A stretch of DNA of 64,000 bases from a phage. Shown one piece after another: positions 3,944 to 61,024 of the stretch; the first letter of the stretch is position 1, and every line of letters starts with the position of its first letter. Where the stretch lies: the sequence record NC_100371.1; one strand, written 5' to 3'. Under the pieces are notes generated by a model. It saw nothing but the letters and a program-made list of their open reading frames with translations. It was not told where the DNA came from and did no database searches. Position numbers and translations under genes: made by a program.

Positions 3944-4414
3944 TTACTGTCCAATTTTAAAGGTTGCAGATTCAAGCAGCACATCGTAATGCCGCATAGC
4001 CTCGTTGAAGCCCTTCTCTTGTGCCCACTGCTCACTAACAGTGGGGTTACTAAACTGACCAGCCTCAATAACAAACTGGATAGCTTTGGCCCCTGTATCC
4101 CCCATCTGCCTAAGAACAGCCTCTGCACTTGATCCTCTAGCCATAGCTCTCAACAATTTTTCTGTTAAGGTCTGCAGTTGCGTGCTGTGAAATGCAAAGG
4201 CCGTCTCCATGAAATTGCGAACAGGCAGCCCGTTCCAACCGAAGTTGTGAATAGCTGCCAATGTTGCCATATTTAAGCCTGACGGGTGAGGTTCATCATA
4301 AAAGCCGTAGGTTATTGTTTTGCTTTCAAGTTTCACAAGGTCTTTATAAAAGCGATCTAAACGCTTTAGGTTGAACCTTGTTTGACATTTAACCTTTAGC
4401 ATTATATTCCTCAC
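3944..4414 (-). CDS. hypothetical virion protein (head-tail joining region)
   Basis: 156-aa ORF in structural operon. Confidence 0.4.
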   Translation of the reverse strand: MRNIMLKVKCQTRFNLKRLDRFYKDLVKLESKTITYGFYDEPHPSGLNMATLAAIHNFGWNGLPVRNFMETAFAFHSTQLQTLTEKLLRAMARGSSAEAVLRQMGDTGAKAIQFVIEAGQFSNPTVSEQWAQEKGFNEAMRHYDVLLESATFKIGQ

Positions 4415-14184: not shown

Positions 14185-14261
14185 TGGTCTCCACGGAGTG
14201 ATTCGAACACTCGACCTCCTGATCCCAAATCAGGCGCTCTACCAAGCTGAGCTACGCGGAG
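14185..14261 (-). tRNA. tRNA-Pro (anticodon UGG)
   Basis: Cloverleaf by eye: acceptor CTCCGCG/CGTGGAG (C1-G72 typical of Pro), anticodon loop TTTGGGA, T-loop GTTCGAATC, CCA encoded. Confidence 0.75.
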
Positions 14262-14272
14262 TATTTATTATT

Positions 14273-14347
14273 TGGTGGCCCTGGGTGGAATTGAACCACC
14301 GTCTGGCGATTATGAGTCGCTTGCTTGAACCTTCCAGCTACAGGGCC
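14273..14347 (-). tRNA. tRNA-Met (anticodon CAU; initiator/elongator/Ile-lysidine not distinguished)
   Basis: acceptor GGCCCTG/CAGGGCC, anticodon loop CTCATAA, T-loop GGTTCAATTCC, CCA encoded. Confidence 0.75.
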
Positions 14348-14348
14348 A

Positions 14349-14424
14349 TGGTGCTGATGGCAGGACTTGAACCTGCAACCTATTGATTACAAATCAATTG
14401 CACTGCCAATTGTGCTACATCAGC
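14349..14424 (-). tRNA. tRNA-Thr (anticodon UGU)
   Basis: acceptor GCTGATG/CATCAGC, anticodon arm ATTGA-TTTGTAA-TCAAT, T-arm GCAGG-TTCAAGT-CCTGC, CCA encoded. Confidence 0.75.
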
Positions 14425-14428
14425 AAAA

Positions 14429-14527
14429 GGTGCTAGGTGATGGAATCGAACCATCTATGTATTCAACGACTACCTCGTCTATTTTCAGGATTAAAAATCC
14501 TCGCCCTTGCCAAAGGGCTTACCTAGC
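14429..14527 (-). tRNA. atypical tRNA-like gene (99 nt; anticodon loop reads UUU; possibly degenerate or insert-containing)
   Basis: perfect acceptor GCTAGGT/ACCTAGC, D-arm GCCC-TTTGGCAA-GGGC, canonical T-arm GATGG-TTCGATT-CCATC, but about 30 nt between anticodon arm and T-arm. Confidence 0.4.
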
Positions 14528-14625
14528 TCAGCATGTTGACCATGTTGCTAGTCGGCGATGACGACTGTAACATTTGATAATCCGGTTCTGCTTCCGGCTT
14601 TCGCTTAATTACAAGGTCAACAATA

Positions 14626-14716
14626 TGGCAGAGGATAATGGAATCGAACCATCATCGAGTCATCCTCAACGGGACGGTTTTCAAGACCGCTTGAGCACCA
14701 TTGCTCCCTACCCTCT
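14626..14716 (-). tRNA. tRNA-Ser (anticodon UGA), type II
   Basis: acceptor AGAGGGT/ATCCTCT, anticodon arm GCGGT-CTTGAAA-ACCGT, long variable arm TTGAG-GATGA-CTCGA, T-loop GGTTCGATTCC, CCA encoded. Confidence 0.7.
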
Positions 14717-14830
14717 TTTATAAACAATACTGATAATGACACTGATTTTCGAGCAGTTAGTGACTAGTATAAACGACGATAAATATCAATGCCATTATCT
14801 GTATGATTTATGCATTTAAAAATATAAATT

Positions 14831-14918
14831 TGGTGGTGAGTGATGGAGTCGAACCACCCGAATCGCAATGATAACAGATTTACAGTCTGCCCCGCTACCC
14901 CTACGGAATTAACTCACC
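14831..14918 (-). tRNA. tRNA-Tyr (anticodon GUA), type II
   Basis: acceptor GGTGAGT/ACTCACC, anticodon arm GCAGA-CTGTAAA-TCTGT, long variable arm, T-loop TTCGACT, CCA encoded. Confidence 0.7.
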
Positions 14919-15048
14919 TAAATACTAATATTTAAATTCTTTTTAAAATAGCTAGTGTTCTAACCACTAACTATGAGGTATCGGTAAAGTGGTTACCGCC
15001 ACTTGCCGAAGATTTACTCTGCTAAAGTAAGCTACATTAAAAAGAACT

Positions 15049-15123
15049 TGGCACCCCGTACTGGACTCGAACCAGTGTCAACGGCTTAGAAGGCCGCTGC
15101 TTTATCCACTAAGCTAACAGGGC
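15049..15123 (-). tRNA. tRNA-Arg (anticodon UCU)
   Basis: acceptor GCCCTGT/ACGGGGT, anticodon arm GCGGC-CTTCTAA-GCCGT, T-arm ACTGG-TTCGAGT-CCAGT, CCA encoded. Confidence 0.7.
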
Positions 15124-15558: not shown

Positions 15559-15903
15559 GTTTCCTCCATTATCACGTGATAGGTGGATTTTATCACGGCA
15601 AATACTGATTGTCAAGTTCGCCGCAGGGTGGTATTCCCTGCGACTTGCCCAGCGTCCTGGACCAGCAAGACCCAACAAGTGGGTTACCAGATACCCATTA
15701 CCGCGCTCTGGCTCGACCTTATTACAGGTTGGCTGGGGTCACATCGTCATGTGCTGGCTGCCCCTACCATTTTAAGTGTGGTGCACTATCAAGCCCTCTA
15801 AGGGGAACTCAGCCTTCTCCGAACCCTGTTTCAAAGCATCCGGAGATAAAGCCATCAAACTCATCTTTAAATTGGATATTCATCATGATACACGAAAACA
15901 ACC

Positions 15904-16421: not shown

Positions 16422-17000
16422 TCAACGTTCGTAGTAAATCTTATTCAACATTACCTCATCGTTTGCAGAAAGGATATCAAGATATGCATCACCAAATCTG
16501 CCTGCAACAACCTCTGCATGATACATCACTTCGTTAACATCGTCAAGAGTGATAACCGGATGACCATATCTTTCTGAATATTGTCTCAGTGTGCGATGTA
16601 ACGAGTCGTCATCATATGCAGACTTTTTAATATCACAAACACGACGAATGGCCTTGATGTCGAAAAAACCTGTGCGATACCACCCAAGAAAAAAGTTCCG
16701 TGTAGTGTCAACATCTACATCAATACCATTAAGAACCTTATCTACAAGATAGCTGTCATCCTTTGGACTAGCGTCCTTAGTGCGAATGTAGTTGCCATCT
16801 TTTCCAGGTGATAGCTCCTTCTCATCACCAACCTGCATGCCATCATTTGGCGGTGTTAGCCACTTATCAGGATGCTTACGATCACGAGCGTTAGAATGAT
16901 TACGCTGGAAACCTGGCTTCCACTTGAAAGTTTTCTCCATCTGTTCTTCATTCTGATAACGTTTTGCAATCTTTTCACTGGCATCTTTGCGTGAACTCAT
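16422..17000 (-). CDS. hypothetical protein
   Basis: 192-aa ORF, first gene downstream of the iteron/AT-rich region. Confidence 0.45.
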   Translation of the reverse strand: MSSRKDASEKIAKRYQNEEQMEKTFKWKPGFQRNHSNARDRKHPDKWLTPPNDGMQVGDEKELSPGKDGNYIRTKDASPKDDSYLVDKVLNGIDVDVDTTRNFFLGWYRTGFFDIKAIRRVCDIKKSAYDDDSLHRTLRQYSERYGHPVITLDDVNEVMYHAEVVAGRFGDAYLDILSANDEVMLNKIYYER

Positions 17001-17504
17001 AGCAGACTCCTCTTCAAGTTATAGAAAAACTCACTGTATCGCTTTGTAACGAGCTTTTCTATCAAACTGGTGCGATTGCCTTACTTGGTATAGTTTATAT
17101 AGCTGTGGAGCGATTTAGGGGCCTTCTTGTCAGTTTCCACACATAAACTTTATCCGAACTCGCGCGGGAGGCTCTCAACCGACTCCTTCCGGCGCTGGCA
17201 AGCTTTCGTCGGTGGTCCACATTAGTGCTCGGCCTTTGGCCTGCGCTATCGCTTCGCTCCCACACATGTTAACAGTCCTGCATGTATGCACTTCTGTTAT
17301 TGTGTGCACTATGGAGGCCCGGCATCTCGCCCCTCGTAGGCGAGTGCCAATGAAGGGCCGACACTACCCATAATAAGTAATAAATTTAAAACATGGTACT
17401 TAGGATCTAGTATATTCTACATAAGTTAAGTATATGTACTTTAGTACCATAAGTACTAGATCTTTTATTTTTTATTATTTAGTTATTTTAGTTATATTCT
17501 TTAT

Positions 17505-17587
17505 GTGTCCGTATCACGGACAGTTAGTGTCCGTATTACGGGCAGATGTGTCCGCGTGACGGACAGTAGTGTCCGTATCACGGACAG
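17505..17587. repeat. array of four 19-bp direct repeats, each an inverted-repeat palindrome (TGTCCGT-N3-ACGGACA), candidate operator/iteron array
   Basis: GTGTCCGTATCACGGACAG at 17505 and 17569; variants at 17528 and 17548; spacing 20-23 bp; AT-rich tract 17400-17500 adjacent. Confidence 0.7.
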
Positions 17588-17661
17588 TTACTAACCTCTG
17601 TTCCAGAGTGAACATAAAACATACAAATCCTTATAGTACAGATGTTTAAGTTTTTACTGGT

Positions 17662-18012
17662 CTAACCAGTTGTTGACATTCGAATAACTTCTTCTGGTGG
17701 CAAAACTTTGGAAAATGTGCATCTTTTACCTCTCCCTTGTGTGGATATTTCAACCACTCCTGCACATTCTAAAGTTTTAACGCACGCTGCTGCTTTTGTT
17801 TTCTTTATCCCAACATCTGCTGCAATTTTCCTGGTGCTGGGTGTGAAGCGTGAATTTTCTCCAAGCTTATACCAGTTGTGCAGGTAGCAGTATACGATCT
17901 TGTCATATAAGTCAAGAACAATAACCTCCCCAGTTGTGCCATTCAAAACTTTTGACATAGACAGTATTTCAAGGGGGACTTTAAGATATAGCAGCTTATC
18001 CCCATCTTTCAT
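17662..18012 (-). CDS. putative helix-turn-helix DNA-binding protein
   Basis: 116 aa; HTH-like segment TRKIAADVGIKKTKAAACVKTLECAGVV; adjacent to the palindromic repeat array. Confidence 0.45.
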   Translation of the reverse strand: MKDGDKLLYLKVPLEILSMSKVLNGTTGEVIVLDLYDKIVYCYLHNWYKLGENSRFTPSTRKIAADVGIKKTKAAACVKTLECAGVVEISTQGRGKRCTFSKVLPPEEVIRMSTTG

Positions 18013-18059
18013 ATCTCCTGATTCTCCTTGTGTGGCAATTTTCTTTAAAATAGCAGGGA

Positions 18060-18614
18060 TTACTCCCCGCTGTCAATAGCAAGACTCATTGCAATACGGT
18101 ATGCCTCTTCTAATGGTAAGAGTCTCCCCCACACATCCCAACCGACATCAAACTGCCTGCCAAACAACTGCTGTGTGGTTCCGTGAGCATGACCGAACAG
18201 TTGGACTGATCCGTGAGGCTTTCTGTTCCACTTTGCAAACTGGTAATGGCTCATACAGATCAAATTCTTGTTGTGGCGAAGCTCGTAATAATCTACAACC
18301 TCATGACCGAACTCTTTCATAATTCTGACAGTCGTCCTTGTGTCATGGTTACCACGAACAAGAATAATATGTCCGTTCAACATATTTAGAACATCTGGAA
18401 GCAATTTGTTGATATTCTTATCATTAGTGCACGCAATATCCCCCAAGTGAAACACAGTGTCTGCAGGTGACACAACAGAGTTCCACTTGGTGATGATTCC
18501 CGCATTCATACTGTCAAGATTGTGATCATACTGAGATCTGTGTTTTTGACATGAGTCGAACTCCATTACCCGCTGGTGGAGAAAGTGTGTGTCGCTTGTT
18601 ACAAAGTATTTCAT
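18060..18614 (-). CDS. calcineurin-like metallophosphoesterase (candidate polynucleotide 3'-phosphatase)
   Basis: Motifs DTHF, GDIACTND, GNHD, GHAH; start at internal ATG 18614 with GAGGA RBS (MKYFVTSDTHF...). Confidence 0.6.
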   Translation of the reverse strand: MKYFVTSDTHFLHQRVMEFDSCQKHRSQYDHNLDSMNAGIITKWNSVVSPADTVFHLGDIACTNDKNINKLLPDVLNMLNGHIILVRGNHDTRTTVRIMKEFGHEVVDYYELRHNKNLICMSHYQFAKWNRKPHGSVQLFGHAHGTTQQLFGRQFDVGWDVWGRLLPLEEAYRIAMSLAIDSGE

Positions 18615-56231: not shown

Positions 56232-56594
56232 CACACAAGTCTGCTTTGCAGGTTTAGCTGCCCAGCTAAGGTTCTGGAGGCACCTATAACATCTTTCAAC
56301 TAAATTTCCTACCAACACAGTTACTTACCCACCACACATAACTGTTTGCTTGTTTAGTGAGCAGTCATCCCTTGACATTCTTGCCTATCTTGATAAAATT
56401 AAGTTCTTCTCTTTTCTTTTACCGAGTAATTCGGGTTTTCTGTTCTCTTCGGTTTGAAGGGGTATGGAGATACACCTGAGTGAACAGGGTGAACAACCGA
56501 ACATTTGGCTATGGCATTAGCATGGCGAAGCGGACGGGTGACGAAAGAGGGGCCGGAGGACACCAGTCACTGCCATATAGTATATGGGTGATAA

Positions 56595-57135
56595 CCTGAA
56601 GAGTCTGAATAAGTGTTTAAGTACCAGTCAGAGGAAAAGGTGAATGGTAGCCGAAGGGGGAGAGGGGGTTTCTTATATCTTTAATTTGTATATTATGTAT
56701 ACACTTGTAAACCAATTCAATTAGGATCTGTTTACCACACAAAGTGGATGGAGACAAATATCACCTATTAAACTTGAATTATTTATAGAAAATACCACAA
56801 CACCTCTTAAGTATTTGATTTTACACACAAATCTTACAAATATCCTACCTCCATATTTAACATACTTGTAACATATTCCATATCCTACCTGCCTGATCAA
56901 TTTACTCCCACCACATCCCCACATTTTCCCTGTCTGTACTACCCCTGCCCCGCCGGGAGTCCCGTCATATCTGGCTTTCCAGCAAATATCGCACCCACAA
57001 ATATCATCACCTGAAGAGGGTTTCATCCCATAATACCTGCCTTACCTGAAGAGCGCTTCATACACCACGTAAATTTTTTAATTGACCCCTCCCCGCCGCC
57101 GGAGAGGTTGGCTTTTCCCACACAGGCCTGAAGAG
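56595..57135. repeat. dispersed CCTGAAGAG motif (4 copies) within non-coding region
   Basis: Copies at 56595, 57010, 57045, 57127, two of them in tandem units ACCTGAAGAG-N3-TTCAT. Confidence 0.6.
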
Positions 57136-57760
57136 TCAGCCAGAAATATCTGAACAGGTCCAGTTATACCCCGATTTTGTGCCTGTCCTACAGGAGTGCT
57201 GCCCTGTCAGGAGCCGGTAGCGACTGGAGTGCTGCCAGGCGGACGGAATGGGAATACTTCTCATTTTTATAATAATTCTCAAATATCGAGGCAGTGAGGC
57301 AAATTAATAGGCCAGGCCGTTCACACAGTGGCACAACATTTGCAATCTATCTTGTGGGAGTGAATGAGAATACCTATCATTGTGAGAATGGTTATCATTA
57401 CGGGCAATTTAACATAATACCCATTATGCGCACCACTGGCGATACATACAGGGATTGATAACATGGGTTACTGTTTACGCATATAACAATTATATTTCTT
57501 ACTATTTGTGTGGGATATAGTTAGCAACCAATAGATTAGATATTGACCTGCAGACTTCTGACCGTCCAGACGTCTAAACGCCCACACAGCAAGGATTATA
57601 CATACACTCCTGCATGTAAACAGGACCGCAAAAATGCTACCATACCAGTTTGTAAATTTTTCATGCAGCACTTGACAAAGAGGAGAAAAACTTGTCTGAC
57701 ACACTGGACACAATGTCCCACAATATGACACAATAACGGCTGTTACTATTCCATATCTCA

Positions 57761-57815
57761 CTGTTTACGCATAGACTGTTTACGCCTGAATAGTTTACGC
57801 AAAAACTGTTTACAC
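57761..57815. repeat. tandem array of four CTGTTTACGC-like 10-mers with 15-bp periodicity
   Basis: Copies at 57761, 57776, 57791 (tagtttacgc), 57806 (ctgtttacac); further isolated copies at 57471 and 58217. Confidence 0.65.
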
Positions 57816-57827
57816 AGAGATGATAAG

Positions 57828-58059
57828 CCATGCCATTCGTTTGCATGAAAACAATTAACAAGCTAACAATCTATGACATAATATAAAAGCAGGGCAACTA
57901 TTAGAAGATCTATAGTTGCCTTGCTTGTTATGTCATGATTAACTAAATACAAGGCAACTATGATCTGAATAATAGATTGCAGACAAACTATCACGGGGGT
58001 GATTGTTACTGCTTTTATATTATGTCGCGACTCCGTCGCGCCATGCCATTCGTTTGCAT
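57828..58059. repeat. pair of 19-bp direct repeats (CCATGCCATTCGTTTGCAT) flanking a palindrome-rich about 190-bp segment
   Basis: Repeats at 57828-57846 and 58041-58059; inside, inverted copies of GGCAACTAT/ATAGTTGCC and GACATAATATAAAAGCAG/CTGCTTTTATATTATGTC. Confidence 0.6.
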
Positions 58060-58682
58060 AGTTGCCTTATTGTTACAGGTAAAACAATTACATTATTAAT
58101 TATTTCTTATCTTTCTCTTAGTCATCTAATGATTCCAGTCAGTATAGTAATGTACAGTAAACATTAGACGACTAAAGATTTCTCTGTGTATAATAACTTA
58201 TCGTGACAATTTCGAACTGTTTACGAAAAATGTTGACACCTGAGCTGATTTATGTTATGCAGTTTACACGAATAATTATTTTATGCAGGTATTGACTATT
58301 CCGTTATTCTGTGGTTGGAATAAATACTTTGCAGACTATAGAATGGCGTGCGTACGTGAATTCTGAGATCTGGCGGCTATAGTTATACTCGATTTTTCGC
58401 GTAGAACACGCTTTCGATGCTGTGTAAGTGTATGACTTATAAAGATTTTTAGTTGTTGACAAGATATTGGAGATGTGCATCAGGTTAAAATTTGTGCAAT
58501 AGCGGCATTACGTGCACTTTTGGGAGAGAAAACGGGTAAAAATGGCCCTGCTACCACACAATGAAAGATTATGCAATAGTTATTTTCCATGTATATTTGT
58601 ACAGTATGTGGGATTGATGGCTAGTCAATTATTCCACTTGCCAGGTAGGGCCGTTTATGGTAGGAGAAGAGCAGACAAAAAG

Positions 58683-58708
58683 AAAGGGGCCTTTAAGCCC
58701 CTTGATAA
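58683..58708 (-). terminator. Rho-independent terminator ending the right-hand minus-strand gene block
   Basis: minus-strand GGGGC-ttaaag-GCCCC followed by TTTCTTTTTGTCT. Confidence 0.6.
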
Positions 58709-58721
58709 TTCAGTTAAGAAA

Positions 58722-59141
58722 TTATAATGATTCGTATATTTCAAAAATCCGATTTGCCAGGTCGTTACGGTAGCGGAATTTTTCATCGCGCTTGATCATT
58801 AAATCCTTATAGCCGTACTCTTTAAGCACTTCATTAACTTTATAGCGGCATACCTGCATATTATCTTGAGCGTCACCAATAAACTTGTTGCTGTGGTGCA
58901 TTGCTTTAATTTCTTCTTCCAGGACCAGGGCAACTACCCGGACCGGATCAAGCTGATAGGCGGTAACATCTATGCGGCATTGTAGACGGCTTTTAACGTC
59001 TGCCACCGGATATACTGCAACCTCTTCCCCGTCAACATTGACAATAATTAGTTTACCATCGATTTCGAATCCTTTCGCCGCCGGACCGTGACAAAAAGCG
59101 TTATCAAAGCTATATGCCGGATTATCAGATTTAATGTTCAT
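58722..59141 (-). CDS. hypothetical protein
   Basis: 139-aa ORF with RBS, last gene before terminator. Confidence 0.45.
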   Translation of the reverse strand: MNIKSDNPAYSFDNAFCHGPAAKGFEIDGKLIIVNVDGEEVAVYPVADVKSRLQCRIDVTAYQLDPVRVVALVLEEEIKAMHHSNKFIGDAQDNMQVCRYKVNEVLKEYGYKDLMIKRDEKFRYRNDLANRIFEIYESL

Positions 59142-59285
59142 GGTGTTTTTACCTCTTAGTTAATTTTCTTACAACTTCCCTTCAAAAAAGAATATAGCAA
59201 AACTGCCGATCCCTGTCAACAAGGGATAGCATAATTTTTATGTGATCAAGGGGCTTTATCGCCCCTGACCATGCAACCTGTTGTA

Positions 59286-59633
59286 TTATTTGTTGCTCAT
59301 CCAGTTTTCCCAAGCTGCCTGATAATCTGCCTCACTACGGCGGATCTCTTCTTGTTCTTCAAGCCGGATCTCTTCTTCCAGGTACCCCAAGATATCGGCT
59401 TTTTTGGTCTGGCGTAACATCCAATCGTCTTTTTTGCGAGTAAAGATCTTGTACGCTTTCTCGCAAACTTCTTTTTTGCTACCTTTTTGGACTTCAAGAA
59501 TTCTGTAAGCCATGTACTGAACTAGTTTGAGCTGGTCAAGACGTTTCATGATGTTTTCCTCTTTATGTGGTCCTGGTTTAGTGGGCCTTTTGGCCCGTGT
59601 CATTATCTTATTACTTACGGCGGCAGAATTCAA
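59286..59633 (-). CDS. hypothetical protein
   Basis: 115-aa basic ORF. Confidence 0.4.
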   Translation of the reverse strand: MNSAAVSNKIMTRAKRPTKPGPHKEENIMKRLDQLKLVQYMAYRILEVQKGSKKEVCEKAYKIFTRKKDDWMLRQTKKADILGYLEEEIRLEEQEEIRRSEADYQAAWENWMSNK

Positions 59634-59883
59634 GCGTTTTTAATTGATAATCTTCCTCAGCCTGGAGTACAACCGCCTCGATCATTTCGTTGGCATTGTT
59701 GAAGCCATACCCTTTAGCGAACTCGTCCGCACCACCTTCGTGATCATGTTCTGCGTTCATCGCTTCCACGAAATGGAATTCAAGATTATTGAGATAAGGG
59801 CTTGATGTTCCGTCCTCTTTTTCGATGAGATCCCAAATAGTATTAAAACGTGATTCGACTTCTTGGTTAATCCAGCTTAACAT
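59611..59883 (-). CDS. hypothetical protein
   Basis: 90-aa acidic ORF. Confidence 0.4.
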   Translation of the reverse strand: MLSWINQEVESRFNTIWDLIEKEDGTSSPYLNNLEFHFVEAMNAEHDHEGGADEFAKGYGFNNANEMIEAVVLQAEEDYQLKTLEFCRRK

Positions 59884-60095
59884 GGCGTTTTCCTCTCTTC
59901 TGGTTGTTGTGTGGGCACTTTTGCCCCTTCAAGATAAATGTTACCCTACCACCTGGCAGGTGTCAACGGTTTTTATAGTTTTTTATATGACAGGCACCCC
60001 CGGTGATTGTCTCCCCCCGTCACCAGGTGCCTGCCGTGAAATAAGTATAACAAAAAACAGGACCATTACAAGCCCTGTTTTATGGTTTATAAAGA

Positions 60096-60287
60096 TTATA
60101 TTTTTTCGCCTATATAGTCCGGTCGGTTTTTCTCTGTCATACGCTTAAGCAATTCTTGCATGTTGCTTATGGCTTGTAGTGTATCCTCTTCAAGGGATGA
60201 ATCGAGATAATCAGGATCATTCTTCACCTTGCAATGATTATGGTAACGTAGTACTGCCAGTACTTTTTTAACTTCTTCTGCTGTCAT
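60096..60287 (-). CDS. hypothetical protein
   Basis: 63-aa ORF. Confidence 0.35.
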   Translation of the reverse strand: MTAEEVKKVLAVLRYHNHCKVKNDPDYLDSSLEEDTLQAISNMQELLKRMTEKNRPDYIGEKI

Positions 60288-60295
60288 TATTCCAC

Positions 60296-60430
60296 CTAAA
60301 ACAATGAGTTAATATATAACATTAGATCGCTGACTACCAGGACAACACTGATCAGCACATACCTAACCATAAGTGGAAAGATCGCCAACATTGCCACCAC
60401 GATCCCCATGGTAATAATTATCTTTCTCAT
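60296..60430 (-). CDS. small hydrophobic membrane peptide (44 aa)
   Basis: MRKIIITMGIVVAMLAIFPLMVRYVLISVVLVV...; start abuts stop of upstream gene. Confidence 0.3.
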   Translation of the reverse strand: MRKIIITMGIVVAMLAIFPLMVRYVLISVVLVVSDLMLYINSLF

Positions 60431-60432
60431 GG

Positions 60433-60717
60433 TTAACGGTTCACGTAAGTTTTCCCGTTTACGGTTATCGGCAGATCCTCCAGGTCTGGATCTTCTTTAA
60501 GGTCGCGAGCAAGTTCACCGCACCGGACGCCCTCGAATCCGTAGTACTCTGTAGTGCCGTCCTTAAAAGTTTTTGCGGCAAGGCATAGGCGATAAGTAAC
60601 CCCGATTTGATTGACGGCATGGATATCAGTTAGATCTACCTCTTTTGCCAACTCTTTAGCCATTACAGGCGCATTAAGTCCAACAACCAGGGCAACCACT
60701 GCGATCATCTTTTTCAT
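60433..60717 (-). CDS. secreted/periplasmic small protein
   Basis: N-terminal signal peptide MKKMIAVVALVVGLNAPVMA, 94 aa. Confidence 0.45.
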   Translation of the reverse strand: MKKMIAVVALVVGLNAPVMAKELAKEVDLTDIHAVNQIGVTYRLCLAAKTFKDGTTEYYGFEGVRCGELARDLKEDPDLEDLPITVNGKTYVNR

Positions 60718-60808
60718 TGTGTCTATCCTCTTTCTGCTACGTTTAAGGCGGCAGTAACCGCCTGTTTATGCTTTGTTGGTTAATTTTCGGGTATCTGTAT
60801 AAATTAAA

Positions 60809-61024
60809 CTATGCTGTACGCTCAACTATAACAACGGCTTGAGGGATCTCACCTTCAACCACTATCAAGGCTTTTTTCTGCGTGATAGATATCTTTACCC
60901 GCTTCAGCGTGGCGGTAAAATCTTTCATTTCGTCACGTGGTGTTTTAGTGCAATACCAGATCTCAGGCTTGCCGATCTGCAAGTTGCGTAAAAATTCTGT
61001 TTTGCCTGTTTTGTTGGTGATCAT
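60809..61024 (-). CDS. hypothetical protein
   Basis: 71-aa ORF. Confidence 0.35.
   Translation of the reverse strand: MITNKTGKTEFLRNLQIGKPEIWYCTKTPRDEMKDFTATLKRVKISITQKKALIVVEGEIPQAVVIVERTA

What the first reader, a model, noticed from the sequence alone, without database searches (positions are those of the whole stretch)
17040..17400. GC-rich structured non-coding island between gene 16422-17000 and the iteron array
About 350 bp with no ORF in the track, markedly more GC-rich than its surroundings and full of short inverted repeats (for example GGCCTTTGGCC, GCCCCTCGTAGGCGAG). It could encode a small structured RNA or be a horizontally acquired remnant.
Basis: seen in the sequence. Interest (0 to 1): 0.4.

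Follow-up and report, generated by a model that had tools for sequence, protein, structure and literature searches.

The report
Conserved hairpin array beside phage origin
The GC-rich island is a real, non-coding, selectively conserved array of hairpins next to the likely replication origin of an rV5-like E. coli phage, and its core also occurs, with compensating stem changes, in apparently undescribed 13-kb E. coli plasmids that carry phage capsid and tail genes.

Summary
17119-17368 is the GC-richest 250 nt of the window (56.8% against 42.7%). It has no coding signal and no Rfam or tRNA match.

The window is a Vequintavirus (rV5-like). The island (about 17113-17365) is present in all 118 genus records. 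In a divergent relative the adjacent initiator gene, iterons and AT-rich stretch are replaced, yet the island stays 86-92% identical. Third codon positions of the neighbouring gene are 66% identical.

A 67-nt core (D1, 17156-17222) also occurs in about 13-kb circular E. coli plasmids. These encode a capsid protein, a Dit-like tail protein, a neck protein and a tape measure related to rV5 proteins, and no terminase is annotated. Between phage and plasmids the 24-nt loop is identical, while the enclosing 6-bp stem differs at three pairs, each compensated. The 3' hairpin also covaries.

In the plasmids D1 heads a variable array of hairpin cassettes, each ending in CCCACACA, beside unrelated iterons.

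My preferred reading (about 0.4) is a cis-acting origin accessory that works as a folded single strand, a priming or loading signal. The rivals are a plus-strand ncRNA, a pac site and REP-like cassettes. The functional strand and whether it acts as RNA or DNA are unresolved.

The parts
17113..17365 (.). The conserved GC-rich island as a whole (a hairpin-cassette array). These are the limits of conservation against the divergent relative L004.
   Evidence: 85.8% identity to L004, against 57% for 17076-17112 and 35% for the AT-rich stretch. GC maximum of the window.
17114..17121 (+). 5' boundary motif TTTAGGGG (ATTTAGRGG), also present in the leader of the plasmid arrays.
   Evidence: direct reading of the sequences.
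17137..17143 (+). First CCACACA punctuation motif.
   Evidence: The same motif ends every cassette of the plasmid arrays.
17156..17222 (+). D1 core: CGCGCGGGAGRCTC, stem 17178-17183 / 17208-17213 (ACCGAC/GTCGGT) enclosing the invariant 24-nt loop 17184-17207 (TCCTTCCGGCGCTGGCAAGCTTTC), then GGTCCACAT.
   Evidence: Covariance model R1 gives one hit per genome at 91-97 bits. The stem is GCTGCC/GGCAGC in the plasmids, so 3 of 6 pairs changed on both sides. A third version, TCCGGAT/ATCCGGA, occurs in type-2 and type-3 plasmids.
17224..17247 (.). Hairpin AGTGC..GGCC-TTT-GGCC..GCGCT.
   Evidence: predicted in the single-sequence and the alignment folds. It does not vary among phages, so there is no covariation test.
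17259..17309 (.). CCCACACA motif (17259-17266) plus a long hairpin closed by CACACA/TGTGTG. An 18-nt deletion (17287-17304) in rV5, Pr121LW and MaxTheCat leaves a shorter perfect hairpin, CACACATG..CATGTGTG.
17316..17359 (.). 3' hairpin S4: GGCCC-GGCA-CTCGCC / GGCGAG-TGCC-GGGCC.
   Evidence: z -3.6 and -3.5. The copy in plasmid L019 reads GTCA-CTCTCC / GGAGAG-TGAC, which is two compensated pairs.
17366..17504 (.). AT-rich stretch (about 35% GC) with palindromes and a T-run on the + strand. It is a candidate DNA-unwinding element.
   Evidence: It is replaced in L004.
17505..17590 (.). Four 21-22-nt iterons (GTGTCCGTATCACGGACAGTTA).
   Evidence: L004 has five unrelated 20-nt repeats in their place.
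17662..18012 (-). 116-aa winged-helix protein, the putative replication initiator.
   Evidence: phrog_12838 'replication initiation protein' (E 6e-78), with weak hits to phrog_8102, 428 and 270. Pfam DUF6945 and HTH_36. L004 carries a different, distantly related 143-aa protein here.
17021..17075 (-). Strongly conserved block with a 12-nt inverted repeat (17021-17032 / 17051-17062) between the island and gene 16422-17000. Presumably the regulatory region of that gene, not part of the island.
   Evidence: 92% identity to L004.

Best explanation
The island is a cis-acting accessory module of the phage's iteron-type replication origin, and it works as a folded single strand.

Proposed sequence of events:
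1. The 116-aa winged-helix initiator binds the four iterons and opens the adjacent AT-rich stretch.
2. Unwinding, or a transcript running into that stretch, exposes the island as a single strand.
3. The island's hairpins stay folded and present conserved unpaired sequences: the 24-nt D1 loop and the CA-rich linkers.
4. These serve as the entry or priming site for a replication factor that does not depend on the particular initiator. The candidate is the phage's T7-like primase-helicase and polymerase.

The 13-kb plasmids carry the same core next to their own, unrelated iterons. That would let them be copied by the same machinery.

Shown here:
- The island is non-coding.
- It is under purifying selection.
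- Two helices are kept by compensatory change while a loop stays invariant.
- It sits at a constant position and orientation relative to three unrelated iteron sets.
- It survives exchange of the initiator-iteron unit.
- It is shared with the plasmids.

Inferred, not shown:
- That the iterons are an origin.
- That the island acts in replication.
- That it acts as DNA rather than RNA.
- Which strand folds.
- Which factor reads it.
For: 1. Origin context. Four direct repeats, an AT-rich stretch and a gene of the 'replication initiation protein' families immediately upstream. The repeats lie downstream of that gene, not at its promoter.

2. Module exchange. In IMG/VR relative L004 the initiator-like gene, the repeats and the AT-rich DNA are all different. 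The island is kept right up to its 3' boundary. Identity is 85.8% for the island, 91% for D1 and 92.5% for S4, against 65.6% at third codon positions of the adjacent gene.

3. Same arrangement in the plasmids. The order is array, then a pyrimidine-rich or AT-rich stretch, then iterons, in the same orientation, with at least five different iteron types.

4. Function as a folded strand. Stem b is ACCGAC/GTCGGT in phages, GCTGCC/GGCAGC in most plasmids and TCCGGAT/ATCCGGA in the rest. 95.8% of cells are paired, and 0 of 500 shuffles reach the observed covariation score. S4 has two compensated pairs. The three-hairpin cassettes keep their architecture with different stems.

5. Sequence-specific reading. 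The 24-nt loop is identical in the window and in type-1 plasmids, and carries only two single-base variants among the other phages, while the stem around it changed.

6. No promoter is required by this model. No conserved promoter is found.

7. DNA-like features. Stems are almost purely Watson-Crick and many loops are C-GNA-G triloops. I recall these as unusually stable in DNA; that is background knowledge, not a test.

8. Precedents (established knowledge, not tested here). The G site downstream of oriR in plasmid R1. ssiA and ssiB beside the iterons of RSF1010. The n'-pas sites of ColE1. Primer transcripts at ColE1 and at T4 oriE.
Against: - No experiment or read data links the iterons or the island to replication.
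- No DnaA-box enrichment.
- The D1 type assorts independently of the plasmids' Rep and iteron type and of every plasmid protein. About a third of the plasmids carry a D1 with a different loop although their structural genes are 92-100% identical. So the phage-type loop is not indispensable to the plasmids.
- The strand could not be fixed. z-scores and alignment folds are similar on both strands. G-T wobbles favour the + strand in the plasmids, but an A-C at the stem end in L004 and L005 favours the - strand.
- Hairpin-plus-T-run features downstream on the + strand in the window, L004 and the plasmids fit a transcript at least as well.
- Within the phages alone there is not a single compensatory change. 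All covariation comes from the phage-plasmid comparison, which amounts to very few evolutionary events.
Confidence: 0.4

Rival explanations
1. The island is a gene for a non-coding RNA of about 260-380 nt, read from the + strand, antisense to all flanking genes. The RNA acts in trans, or in cis on neighbouring transcripts. The plasmids express a longer modular version (D1 plus a variable number of hairpin cassettes). The invariant D1 loop would bind a protein or another RNA.
For: - Covarying stems with a conserved loop are the classical signature of a structured RNA.
- In the plasmids the array is bracketed on the + strand by a promoter-like site (TTGTCA-16-AATTAT) and by a conserved 11-bp hairpin followed by CTTTCATTTG (z -3.05).
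- Hairpin plus T-rich run also follows the island on the + strand in the window and, with unrelated sequence, in L004.
- The interior wobbles in the plasmid stems are G-T on the + strand: GGTCCAC/GTGGGCC, and GGTGGC/GTCACC in L126.
- Copies of a related 50-nt three-hairpin module that lie inside genes are always in the same orientation on the sense strand, at 3 independent positions.
Against: - No Rfam match even at E<10.
- No sigma-70 consensus promoter on the + strand in the phage. The extended -10-like TGGTATAGT at 17084-17092 is lost in L004 and L005.
- Fold energies are only modestly better than shuffles and are equal on both strands.
- There are very few G-U pairs for an RNA of this size.
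- The D1 loop has no better-than-chance complementary target in the 64-kb window.
- The T-rich runs could simply belong to the unwinding element.
Confidence: 0.3
2. The island is, or contains, the packaging recognition (pac) site of the headful-packaging phage. The plasmids are satellites that lack terminase and carry the helper's pac so that they are encapsidated. The repeated CCACA(C/T)A motifs would be binding sites for the small terminase subunit.
For: - The plasmids have capsid, Dit-like, neck and tape-measure genes related to rV5's. No terminase or portal is annotated.
- D1 with S4, plus one 50-nt module, are the only non-coding stretches they share with the phage.
- The analogy is P4, which carries the cos site of P2 (background knowledge).
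- Vequintaviruses package by the headful mechanism (PMC13211470).
- CCACACA is over-represented in the window: 28 matches against 9.4 +/- 3 expected.
Against: - Free covariation of stems is not what a duplex protein-binding site predicts.
- The site is about 4-7 kb from the large terminase gene (rV5 58,027-60,872 against 64,704-65,046).
- PhageTerm reported 'circular permutated' genomes with no fixed terminus for Vequintaviruses (PMC8407724).
- Plasmids with type-2 or type-3 D1 lack the phage-type loop but have near-identical structural genes, so presumably the same helper.
- No phage in the collection carries the type-2 D1.
Confidence: 0.1
3. The island is an accretion of mobile, REP-like GC-rich hairpin cassettes that recombine at their CA-repeat junctions. 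They would have only a generic structural role, such as transcript stabilisation or insulation, or a gyrase or supercoiling site like the par locus of pSC101. They would have no specific role in replication or packaging.
For: - Cassette number and order differ between otherwise near-identical plasmids, and the CA repeat varies in length (CCCACACA, CCCACACACA).
- A related 50-nt three-hairpin module occurs at several unrelated positions in the plasmids and twice in rV5, including inside genes.
- The type-2 D1 stem and tail (CCGGAT...CTTATCCGG) resemble the E. coli REP consensus. This is a comparison by eye with a consensus recalled from memory.
- D1 types are interchangeable.
Against: - D1 and S4 are single-copy.
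- They are kept in all 118 phage genomes and are constrained about as strongly as first and second codon positions.
- The 24-nt loop is identical across phage and plasmids while its stem diverged, which argues for sequence-specific recognition.
- The phage island has no match on any E. coli chromosome.
Confidence: 0.12
4. The island encodes small proteins on the - strand, as annotated in some records: rV5 ORF78 (56 aa, 17095-17265) and a 31-aa ORF at 17269-17364.
For: ORFs exist mechanically and are annotated in several GenBank and RefSeq records. Within 17095-17265 the two indels seen are multiples of three.
Against: - There is no third-position excess in any frame (14/18/18, 12/10/8, 8/6/7 for the - strand ORFs), against 38/20/97, 5/2/23 and 5/1/26 for the flanking genes.
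- One-nucleotide indels occur in L009, L012, L013 and L004.
- The ORF78 frame ends early and has a different start in L004.
- Most annotators call nothing here.
Confidence: 0.03

Closest known systems
Single-strand initiation (ssi) signals next to plasmid origins: the G4-type 'G site' downstream of oriR in plasmid R1, ssiA/ssiB of RSF1010, and the n'-pas sites of ColE1
   Same: All are non-coding, hairpin-forming stretches of about 100-300 nt immediately beside an initiator/iteron/AT-rich duplex origin. They function only after unwinding and independently of the initiator's sequence specificity. RSF1010 has the same order of parts: iterons, AT-rich region, structured signal.
   Different: No sequence similarity was or could be tested, because no ssi library is available. 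The strand specificity that defines ssi signals was not resolved here. The array-of-cassettes organisation with CCCACACA punctuation and a 24-nt invariant loop is not a described ssi feature. The host is a virulent myovirus with its own T7-like primase-helicase.
Origin primer or activator transcripts: ColE1 RNA II, T4 oriE/oriF transcripts, the T7 primary origin
   Same: A structured transcript, or a promoter-proximal structured region, reading toward an AT-rich unwinding element. T4 oriE combines iterons, small Rep proteins and a primer transcript in a lytic myovirus (recalled from the literature).
   Different: No conserved promoter was found on the strand that reads toward the AT-rich region. 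There is no G-rich hybrid-forming tract in the phage, and no evidence of transcription.
cos or pac sites shared by a satellite and its helper (P4 carries the cos site of P2; cos-type PICIs and SaPIs)
   Same: A short stretch of helper-identical non-coding DNA in a small element that has some virion genes but no terminase.
   Different: Known cos and pac sites are duplex protein-binding sites without covarying stems. Here a third of the plasmids lack the helper-type loop. No terminus data place a pac site at the island.
REP/BIME elements of enterobacterial chromosomes, and the par locus of pSC101
   Same: GC-rich extragenic palindromes in arrays, variable in number, non-coding. pSC101 par is a cis-acting repeat-containing locus adjacent to an iteron origin.
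   Different: The phage island has no similarity to E. coli chromosomes. The cassettes are all in one orientation rather than alternating. D1 carries a long invariant loop. Gyrase binding was not tested.
Type III antitoxin (ToxI-like) and other tandem-module RNAs
   Same: Arrays of structured modules separated by a short conserved motif that could be a processing site.
   Different: The modules here are different sequences, not tandem copies of one repeat. No toxin endoribonuclease gene is adjacent. There is no Rfam match.

Membership tests
Any Rfam 15 RNA family (tmRNA, RNase P, 6S, SRP, introns, riboswitches, HEARO, phage sRNAs and others) | A match to the family covariance model at the gathering score, or at least E<10 with permissive filters. 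| tested here: not met
   Nothing lies wholly inside 17040-17400. The only overlapping hit (rli43, 24.6 bits against a gathering score of 100) runs 17282-17579, spans the AT-rich DNA and iterons, and is noise.
tRNA / tmRNA | A cloverleaf or tmRNA detected by ARAGORN. | tested here: not met
   The tRNA genes lie only at 14185-15123.
Protein-coding gene (rV5 ORF78 and similar annotations) | An excess of substitutions at third codon positions, and frame-preserving indels across relatives. | tested here: not met
   (flat phase distribution in all frames, against a strong third-position excess in four flanking genes). (1-nt indels).
Iteron-type replication origin (the neighbourhood of the island) | Three or more direct repeats of about 20 bp next to an AT-rich stretch. 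| tested here: met
   (4 copies at 17505-17590). (17366-17504, about 35% GC).
Iteron-type replication origin (the neighbourhood of the island) | A cognate initiator gene adjacent to the repeats, with initiator and repeats exchanged together between relatives. | tested here: met
   (phrog_12838; HTH_36 and DUF6945). (L004 has a different initiator-like protein and five different repeats).
Iteron-type replication origin (the neighbourhood of the island) | DnaA boxes flanking the unwinding element, as is usual in host-dependent iteron replicons. | tested here: not met
   No exact box, and only four one-mismatch boxes, in 16900-18100, which is no enrichment over the window average of 3.25 per kb.
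Iteron-type replication origin (the neighbourhood of the island) | Replication actually starts there. | not testable with these tools
   Needs marker-frequency sequencing, 2D gels or an autonomous-replication assay.
ssi / primosome-assembly signals | A non-coding hairpin-forming stretch adjacent to a duplex origin. | tested here: met
   for the hairpins. for the position.
ssi / primosome-assembly signals | Activity confined to one strand and one orientation. | tested here: inconclusive
   The orientation relative to the iterons is constant. The folded strand could not be told from energies or substitutions.
ssi / primosome-assembly signals | Directs primer synthesis on SSB-coated single-stranded DNA. 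| not testable with these tools
   This is a biochemical or M13-vector assay.
Origin primer / activator RNA | A promoter that reads through the structured region toward the unwinding element. | tested here: inconclusive
   no + strand consensus promoter at 17000-17110. A TGGTATAGT at 17084-17092 is not conserved in L004 and L005. The plasmids have a 9/12 promoter-like site.
pac / cos site shared by helper and satellite | Present both in the helper and in satellites that lack terminase. | tested here: inconclusive
   Present in 13 plasmids. It is replaced by a different D1 in 7 plasmid loci (6 distinct sequences) whose structural genes are the same; one further plasmid locus (L116) gave no D1 hit.
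pac / cos site shared by helper and satellite | Virion DNA ends, or the packaging series, start at the site. | not testable with these tools
   The literature gives only 'circular permutated' or 'headful (PAC)' without a position.
REP / BIME elements | Similarity to the chromosomal REP consensus, with many chromosomal copies. | tested here: not met
   the phage island has no match on any of 5,426 E. coli chromosomes. Only the type-2 plasmid D1 resembles REP, and that only by eye.
Intrinsic terminator | A GC-rich hairpin directly followed by a T-run. | tested here: not met
   none inside the island. Weaker hairpin-plus-T features lie 30-110 nt downstream on the + strand.

The most novel reading that the evidence does not exclude
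The 13-kb E. coli plasmids are an undescribed family of plasmid-borne satellites of virulent rV5-like myoviruses. They build their own capsid and tail-length parts. The island's D1 core is the helper's own cis signal, for replication loading or for packaging, which the satellites copy in order to be amplified or encapsidated by the helper. The hairpin-cassette array punctuated by CCCACACA would then be a new kind of helper-satellite recognition locus. The alternative D1 types would be specificity variants.
Probability: 0.3. Interest if true: 0.85.

Novelty: new variant of a known kind. Interest (0 to 1): 0.6.

Why it matters
1. For rV5-like phages, which are widely used as O157 biocontrol and therapy candidates, neither the origin nor the packaging signal has been mapped. 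This locus gives a concrete, testable candidate together with its initiator, iterons and an accessory element.

2. The element is a clean example of a structured non-coding motif missing from Rfam. It has an invariant 24-nt loop and a stem that exists in three fully complementary versions.

3. Following it led to about 13-kb circular E. coli elements. The capsid-protein search returned 18 clusters with roughly 500 member sequences, all named ones from E. coli. These elements combine a plasmid replicon with rV5-related capsid, Dit, neck and tape-measure genes. A 2025 review states that only one plasmid phage satellite, of an inovirus, has been demonstrated (PMC12282955). If these plasmids are satellites of a strictly lytic myovirus, they matter for phage-therapy escape and interference. 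They also matter for gene transfer, since one copy carries aminoglycoside-resistance cargo.

4. The shared core says which phage sequence such elements need, and so makes the helper-satellite interface directly testable.

Tried and rejected
- Rfam at permissive thresholds and ARAGORN: nothing.
- Coding potential in six frames: rejected.
- Similarity between island B and the second GC-rich island A, or anything else in the window: none.
- E. coli chromosomes: no match.
- Other Vequintavirinae genera: neither the island nor its two flanking proteins exist outside the 118-119 Vequintavirus records.
- Collection scans. IMG/VR holds only one relative. My gapped pattern was badly chosen: it missed even that relative and returned 63 chance hits in GC-rich genomes, using up the single genome-contig scan (shown to be chance). 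The metagenome scan gave 2 plasmids and 2 phages, and 17 chance hits.
- Type-2 D1 against all phages: no match.
- DnaA boxes: not enriched.
- Sigma-54 promoter in the D1 loop: the plasmid sequence fits 9/12, but the phage lacks the -12 GC. Rejected by inspection.
- H-type pseudoknot (GGGAGG with CCTTCC across stem b): the geometry is attractive, and the helix is in the single-sequence MFE. But positions 17171 and 17189 vary independently in all four combinations, and C17189A breaks the helix in most phages. Not supported.
- 5' helix GGGGCCTTCTTG/CGGGAGGCTCT: it has wobble-to-Watson-Crick changes but also four breaks, and it is not conserved in the plasmids. Left open.
- Strand assignment from shuffle z-scores, alignment folds and wobble counts: inconclusive.
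- Target search for the D1 loop by RNA duplex energy across the window: no better than shuffled loops.
- A plasmid protein that co-varies with D1 type: none.
- A small terminase among the neighbouring genes (ORF74's N-terminal KKRRRRGRPLK looked suggestive): no family support.
- Literature searches on rV5 satellites, Vequintavirus transcriptomes or mapped termini: nothing specific.
Full report
**What the window is.** The region matches 118 phage records at 90-99.8% identity. All are Vequintavirus, the rV5-like E. coli myoviruses. Genes around the finding lie on the - strand. Reading right to left they are: a kinase-like gene, a phosphoesterase, a 116-aa winged-helix protein (17662-18012), four iterons (17505-17590), an AT-rich stretch, the GC-rich island, a 192-aa gene (16422-17000), small genes, a second GC-rich gap, and a tRNA cluster.

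**Checking the observation.**
- The stretch 17119-17368 has 56.8% GC, the maximum of all 250-nt windows in the 64 kb (mean 42.7%, sd 3.6%).
- The island folds better than dinucleotide shuffles, but only moderately: z -3.2 on the + strand and -2.1 on the - strand, and similar values in relatives.
- The 3' hairpin 17316-17359 is clearly exceptional, with z -3.6 and no shuffle out of 200 as stable.
- The mechanical ORFs of 31-56 aa, which some records annotate, have no coding signature. Variable sites are spread 14/18/18, 12/10/8 and 8/6/7 over the codon positions. In the four flanking genes the spread is 38/20/97, 5/2/23, 5/1/26 and 12/9/25. Several strains carry 1-nt indels.
- Rfam gives nothing at E<10, and ARAGORN gives nothing.

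**Selection.** The most divergent relatives are a wastewater phage (L005) and an IMG/VR contig (L004).
- In L004 the initiator-like gene is replaced by a different, distantly related 143-aa protein (phrog_8102, E 4e-6). The four iterons are replaced by five unrelated 20-nt repeats, and the AT-rich DNA is also different.
- The homology resumes exactly at the 3' end of the island. Island identity to L004 is 85.8% (D1 91%, S4 92.5%). Third codon positions of the adjacent gene are 65.6% identical, first and second positions 91.4%, and the linker 17076-17112 is 57% identical.
- The island is therefore constrained about as strongly as amino-acid-determining positions. It is also a module separate from the initiator-iteron unit.
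- Neither the island nor its two flanking proteins exist in other Vequintavirinae genera.

**The unexpected relatives.** A search of E. coli genomes and plasmids with the island found no chromosomal match. It did find 84-86% matches in circular 'plasmids' of 13.2-13.7 kb, plus a 39.6-kb record with three copies.
- These elements encode a major capsid protein, collinear with and 24% identical to the window's capsid protein.
- They also encode a Dit-like tail protein (52-54% identical to rV5 gp048), a neck / tail-completion protein (48% identical to window ORF 3944-4414) and a tape measure with rV5-like segments.
- They carry a winged-helix Rep next to iterons and two HTH proteins. No terminase or portal is annotated.
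- The capsid protein defines a tight family of 18 clusters at 82% identity or more, with roughly 500 member sequences. Every member that carries a name is labelled E. coli (10 of the 18 clusters), and most contigs are 13.4-14.3 kb.
- I found no paper describing them. A 2025 review says only one plasmid satellite, of an inovirus, has been demonstrated.
- That they are satellites of rV5-like phages is my inference from gene content. It has not been shown.

**What is shared.** Apart from the tail-gene similarity and one 50-nt hairpin module, the only nucleotide-level similarity between the plasmids and the phage is the island's core.
- A covariance model of the 67-nt core D1 (17156-17222) finds exactly one copy per phage and per plasmid, at 91-97 bits.
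- D1 reads CGCGCGGGAGRCTC, stem, 24-nt loop, stem, GGTCCACAT.
- The loop TCCTTCCGGCGCTGGCAAGCTTTC is identical in the window and in type-1 plasmids. Among the other phages it carries only two single-base variants.
- The stem is ACCGAC/GTCGGT in phages and GCTGCC/GGCAGC in the plasmids. Three of six pairs changed on both sides, 95.8% of cells are paired, and no shuffle out of 500 reaches the observed covariation score.
- A second class of plasmids has TCCGGAT/ATCCGGA around a different loop, with the same flanks.
- One plasmid (L019) also has the 3' hairpin S4, with GGCA/TGCC changed to GTCA/TGAC and CTCGCC/GGCGAG changed to CTCTCC/GGAGAG.
- These are few evolutionary events, but they are hard to explain unless the stems must pair. 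Within the phages alone there is no compensatory change, because variation is too low.

**Architecture.** In the plasmids D1 heads an array: a leader containing ATTTAGGGG, then D1, then one to four hairpin cassettes, each ending in CC(C)ACACA(CA), then a conserved hairpin with a T-rich tail, a pyrimidine-rich stretch, and the iterons.
- Cassette number and order differ between plasmids whose proteins are 92-100% identical.
- Cassettes of the same class keep their three-hairpin architecture with different stem sequences.
- The phage island obeys the same grammar: TTTAGGGG, CCACACA, D1, a hairpin, CCCACACA, a hairpin closed by CACACA/TGTGTG, and S4. The 18-nt deletion in rV5-type strains leaves a shorter perfect hairpin.
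- D1 type assorts independently of Rep and iteron type and of every plasmid protein.

**Mechanism.** Two points are robust. The element works as a folded single strand with a sequence-specific loop. In three unrelated iteron contexts it sits at the same side and in the same orientation relative to the iterons, and it survives exchange of the initiator-iteron unit.
- I therefore favour, at about 0.4, an origin accessory: a priming or loading signal exposed when the AT-rich stretch opens. It would be read by a factor common to the phages, with the T7-like primase-helicase (rV5 gp225) and polymerase (gp223) as candidates. The precedents are the R1 G site, RSF1010 ssiA/ssiB and the ColE1 pas sites, or, as an RNA variant, ColE1 RNA II and the T4 oriE transcript. 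These come from background knowledge.
- A free-standing + strand ncRNA is nearly as plausible, at about 0.3. The plasmids have a promoter-like site and a terminator-like hairpin bracketing the array on that strand. Hairpin-plus-T-run features follow the island in the window and in L004. Interior wobbles in the plasmid stems are G-T on the + strand.
- A pac site, at about 0.1, would explain why terminase-less elements copy this sequence. It fits poorly with covarying stems, with the distance to the terminase gene, and with plasmids that lack the phage-type loop.
- REP-like cassettes with a generic role, at about 0.12, explain the modularity but not the invariant single-copy core.
- The folded strand, and whether the element acts as DNA or RNA, remain open.

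**Verdict.** It is a selectively maintained, structured, non-coding element that belongs to no catalogued family. It is tied to a likely origin and is shared with a family of capsid- and tail-encoding plasmids. Its function is inferred, not shown.

Noticed in passing
L019 (NZ_CP020521.1), L084-L087, L092, L098, L113-L126: A family of about 13-kb circular E. coli elements combining a Rep/iteron replicon with rV5-related capsid, Dit-like, neck and tape-measure genes, with no terminase or portal annotated. The capsid-protein search returned roughly 500 member sequences, most on 13.4-14.3-kb contigs. I read them as putative plasmid-borne satellites of Vequintavirus. No description was found in the paper library.
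   Followed up: partly
window 15621-15808: A second GC-rich (about 55%), unannotated, conserved island (88.8% identical in L004). It lies between small - strand ORFs and a near-consensus sigma-70 promoter (15615-15587, -). It has no similarity to island B or to the plasmids. Function unknown.
   Followed up: partly
window 56300-58700: A 2.4-2.6-kb stretch with no credible ORF, also unannotated in rV5 (104,013-106,618). It contains four CTGTTTACGC-type direct repeats (57760-57815), long palindromes and six CCACACA motifs. It could be a second origin-like or regulatory region.
   Followed up: no
L111 5484-5541 and 7689-7739 (rV5 about 103.5 kb and 105.7 kb); L019 10886-10934; L085 10647-10697; L086 8549-8597; L098 3313-3363 and 10118-10166: A 50-nt module of three tandem mini-hairpins, (CCC GAA GGG)(GTGAC..GTCAC)(CTGGC..GCCAG). 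It is shared at 78-90% identity between rV5 and the plasmids and sits at unrelated positions, some inside genes, always in the same orientation on the sense strand. It looks mobile.
   Followed up: partly
L118 (NTNY01000053.1, 30.1-kb contig): One copy of the plasmid family is joined to aminoglycoside phosphotransferase genes, a DDE transposase and a TetR-family repressor gene, so the elements can carry resistance cargo.
   Followed up: no
whole window: CCACACA is three-fold over-represented: 28 matches against 9.4 +/- 3.0 expected, and no shuffle out of 100 reaches 28. Clusters lie at 17.1-20.1 kb and 56.3-58.6 kb.
   Followed up: partly
L087, L120, L121, L126, L113, L114 (type-2 and type-3 D1): The alternative D1 stem and tail (TCCGGAT...CTCTTATCCGGAC) resemble the E. 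coli REP consensus (GCCGGATG...CTTATCCGGCCTAC) as I recall it. No phage in the collection carries this D1 type.
   Followed up: partly
window 14429-14527 and 14834-14918: An odd tRNA-like gene of 99 nt that ARAGORN calls with a 4-base anticodon. A further tRNA (Tyr in related records) is found by Rfam but not by ARAGORN.
   Followed up: no
public records CP057073.1 and MG0656xx: A 137.6-kb E. coli 'plasmid' record is an rV5-like phage genome (96% identical over the island). Eighteen to twenty records named 'Campylobacter phage' are near-identical to E. coli Vequintaviruses.
   Followed up: no
window 17021-17062: A conserved 12-nt inverted repeat (ATAGAAAAACTC / GAGCTTTTCTAT, 18-nt spacer) just upstream of gene 16422-17000, kept in L004. 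It looks like an operator.
   Followed up: no
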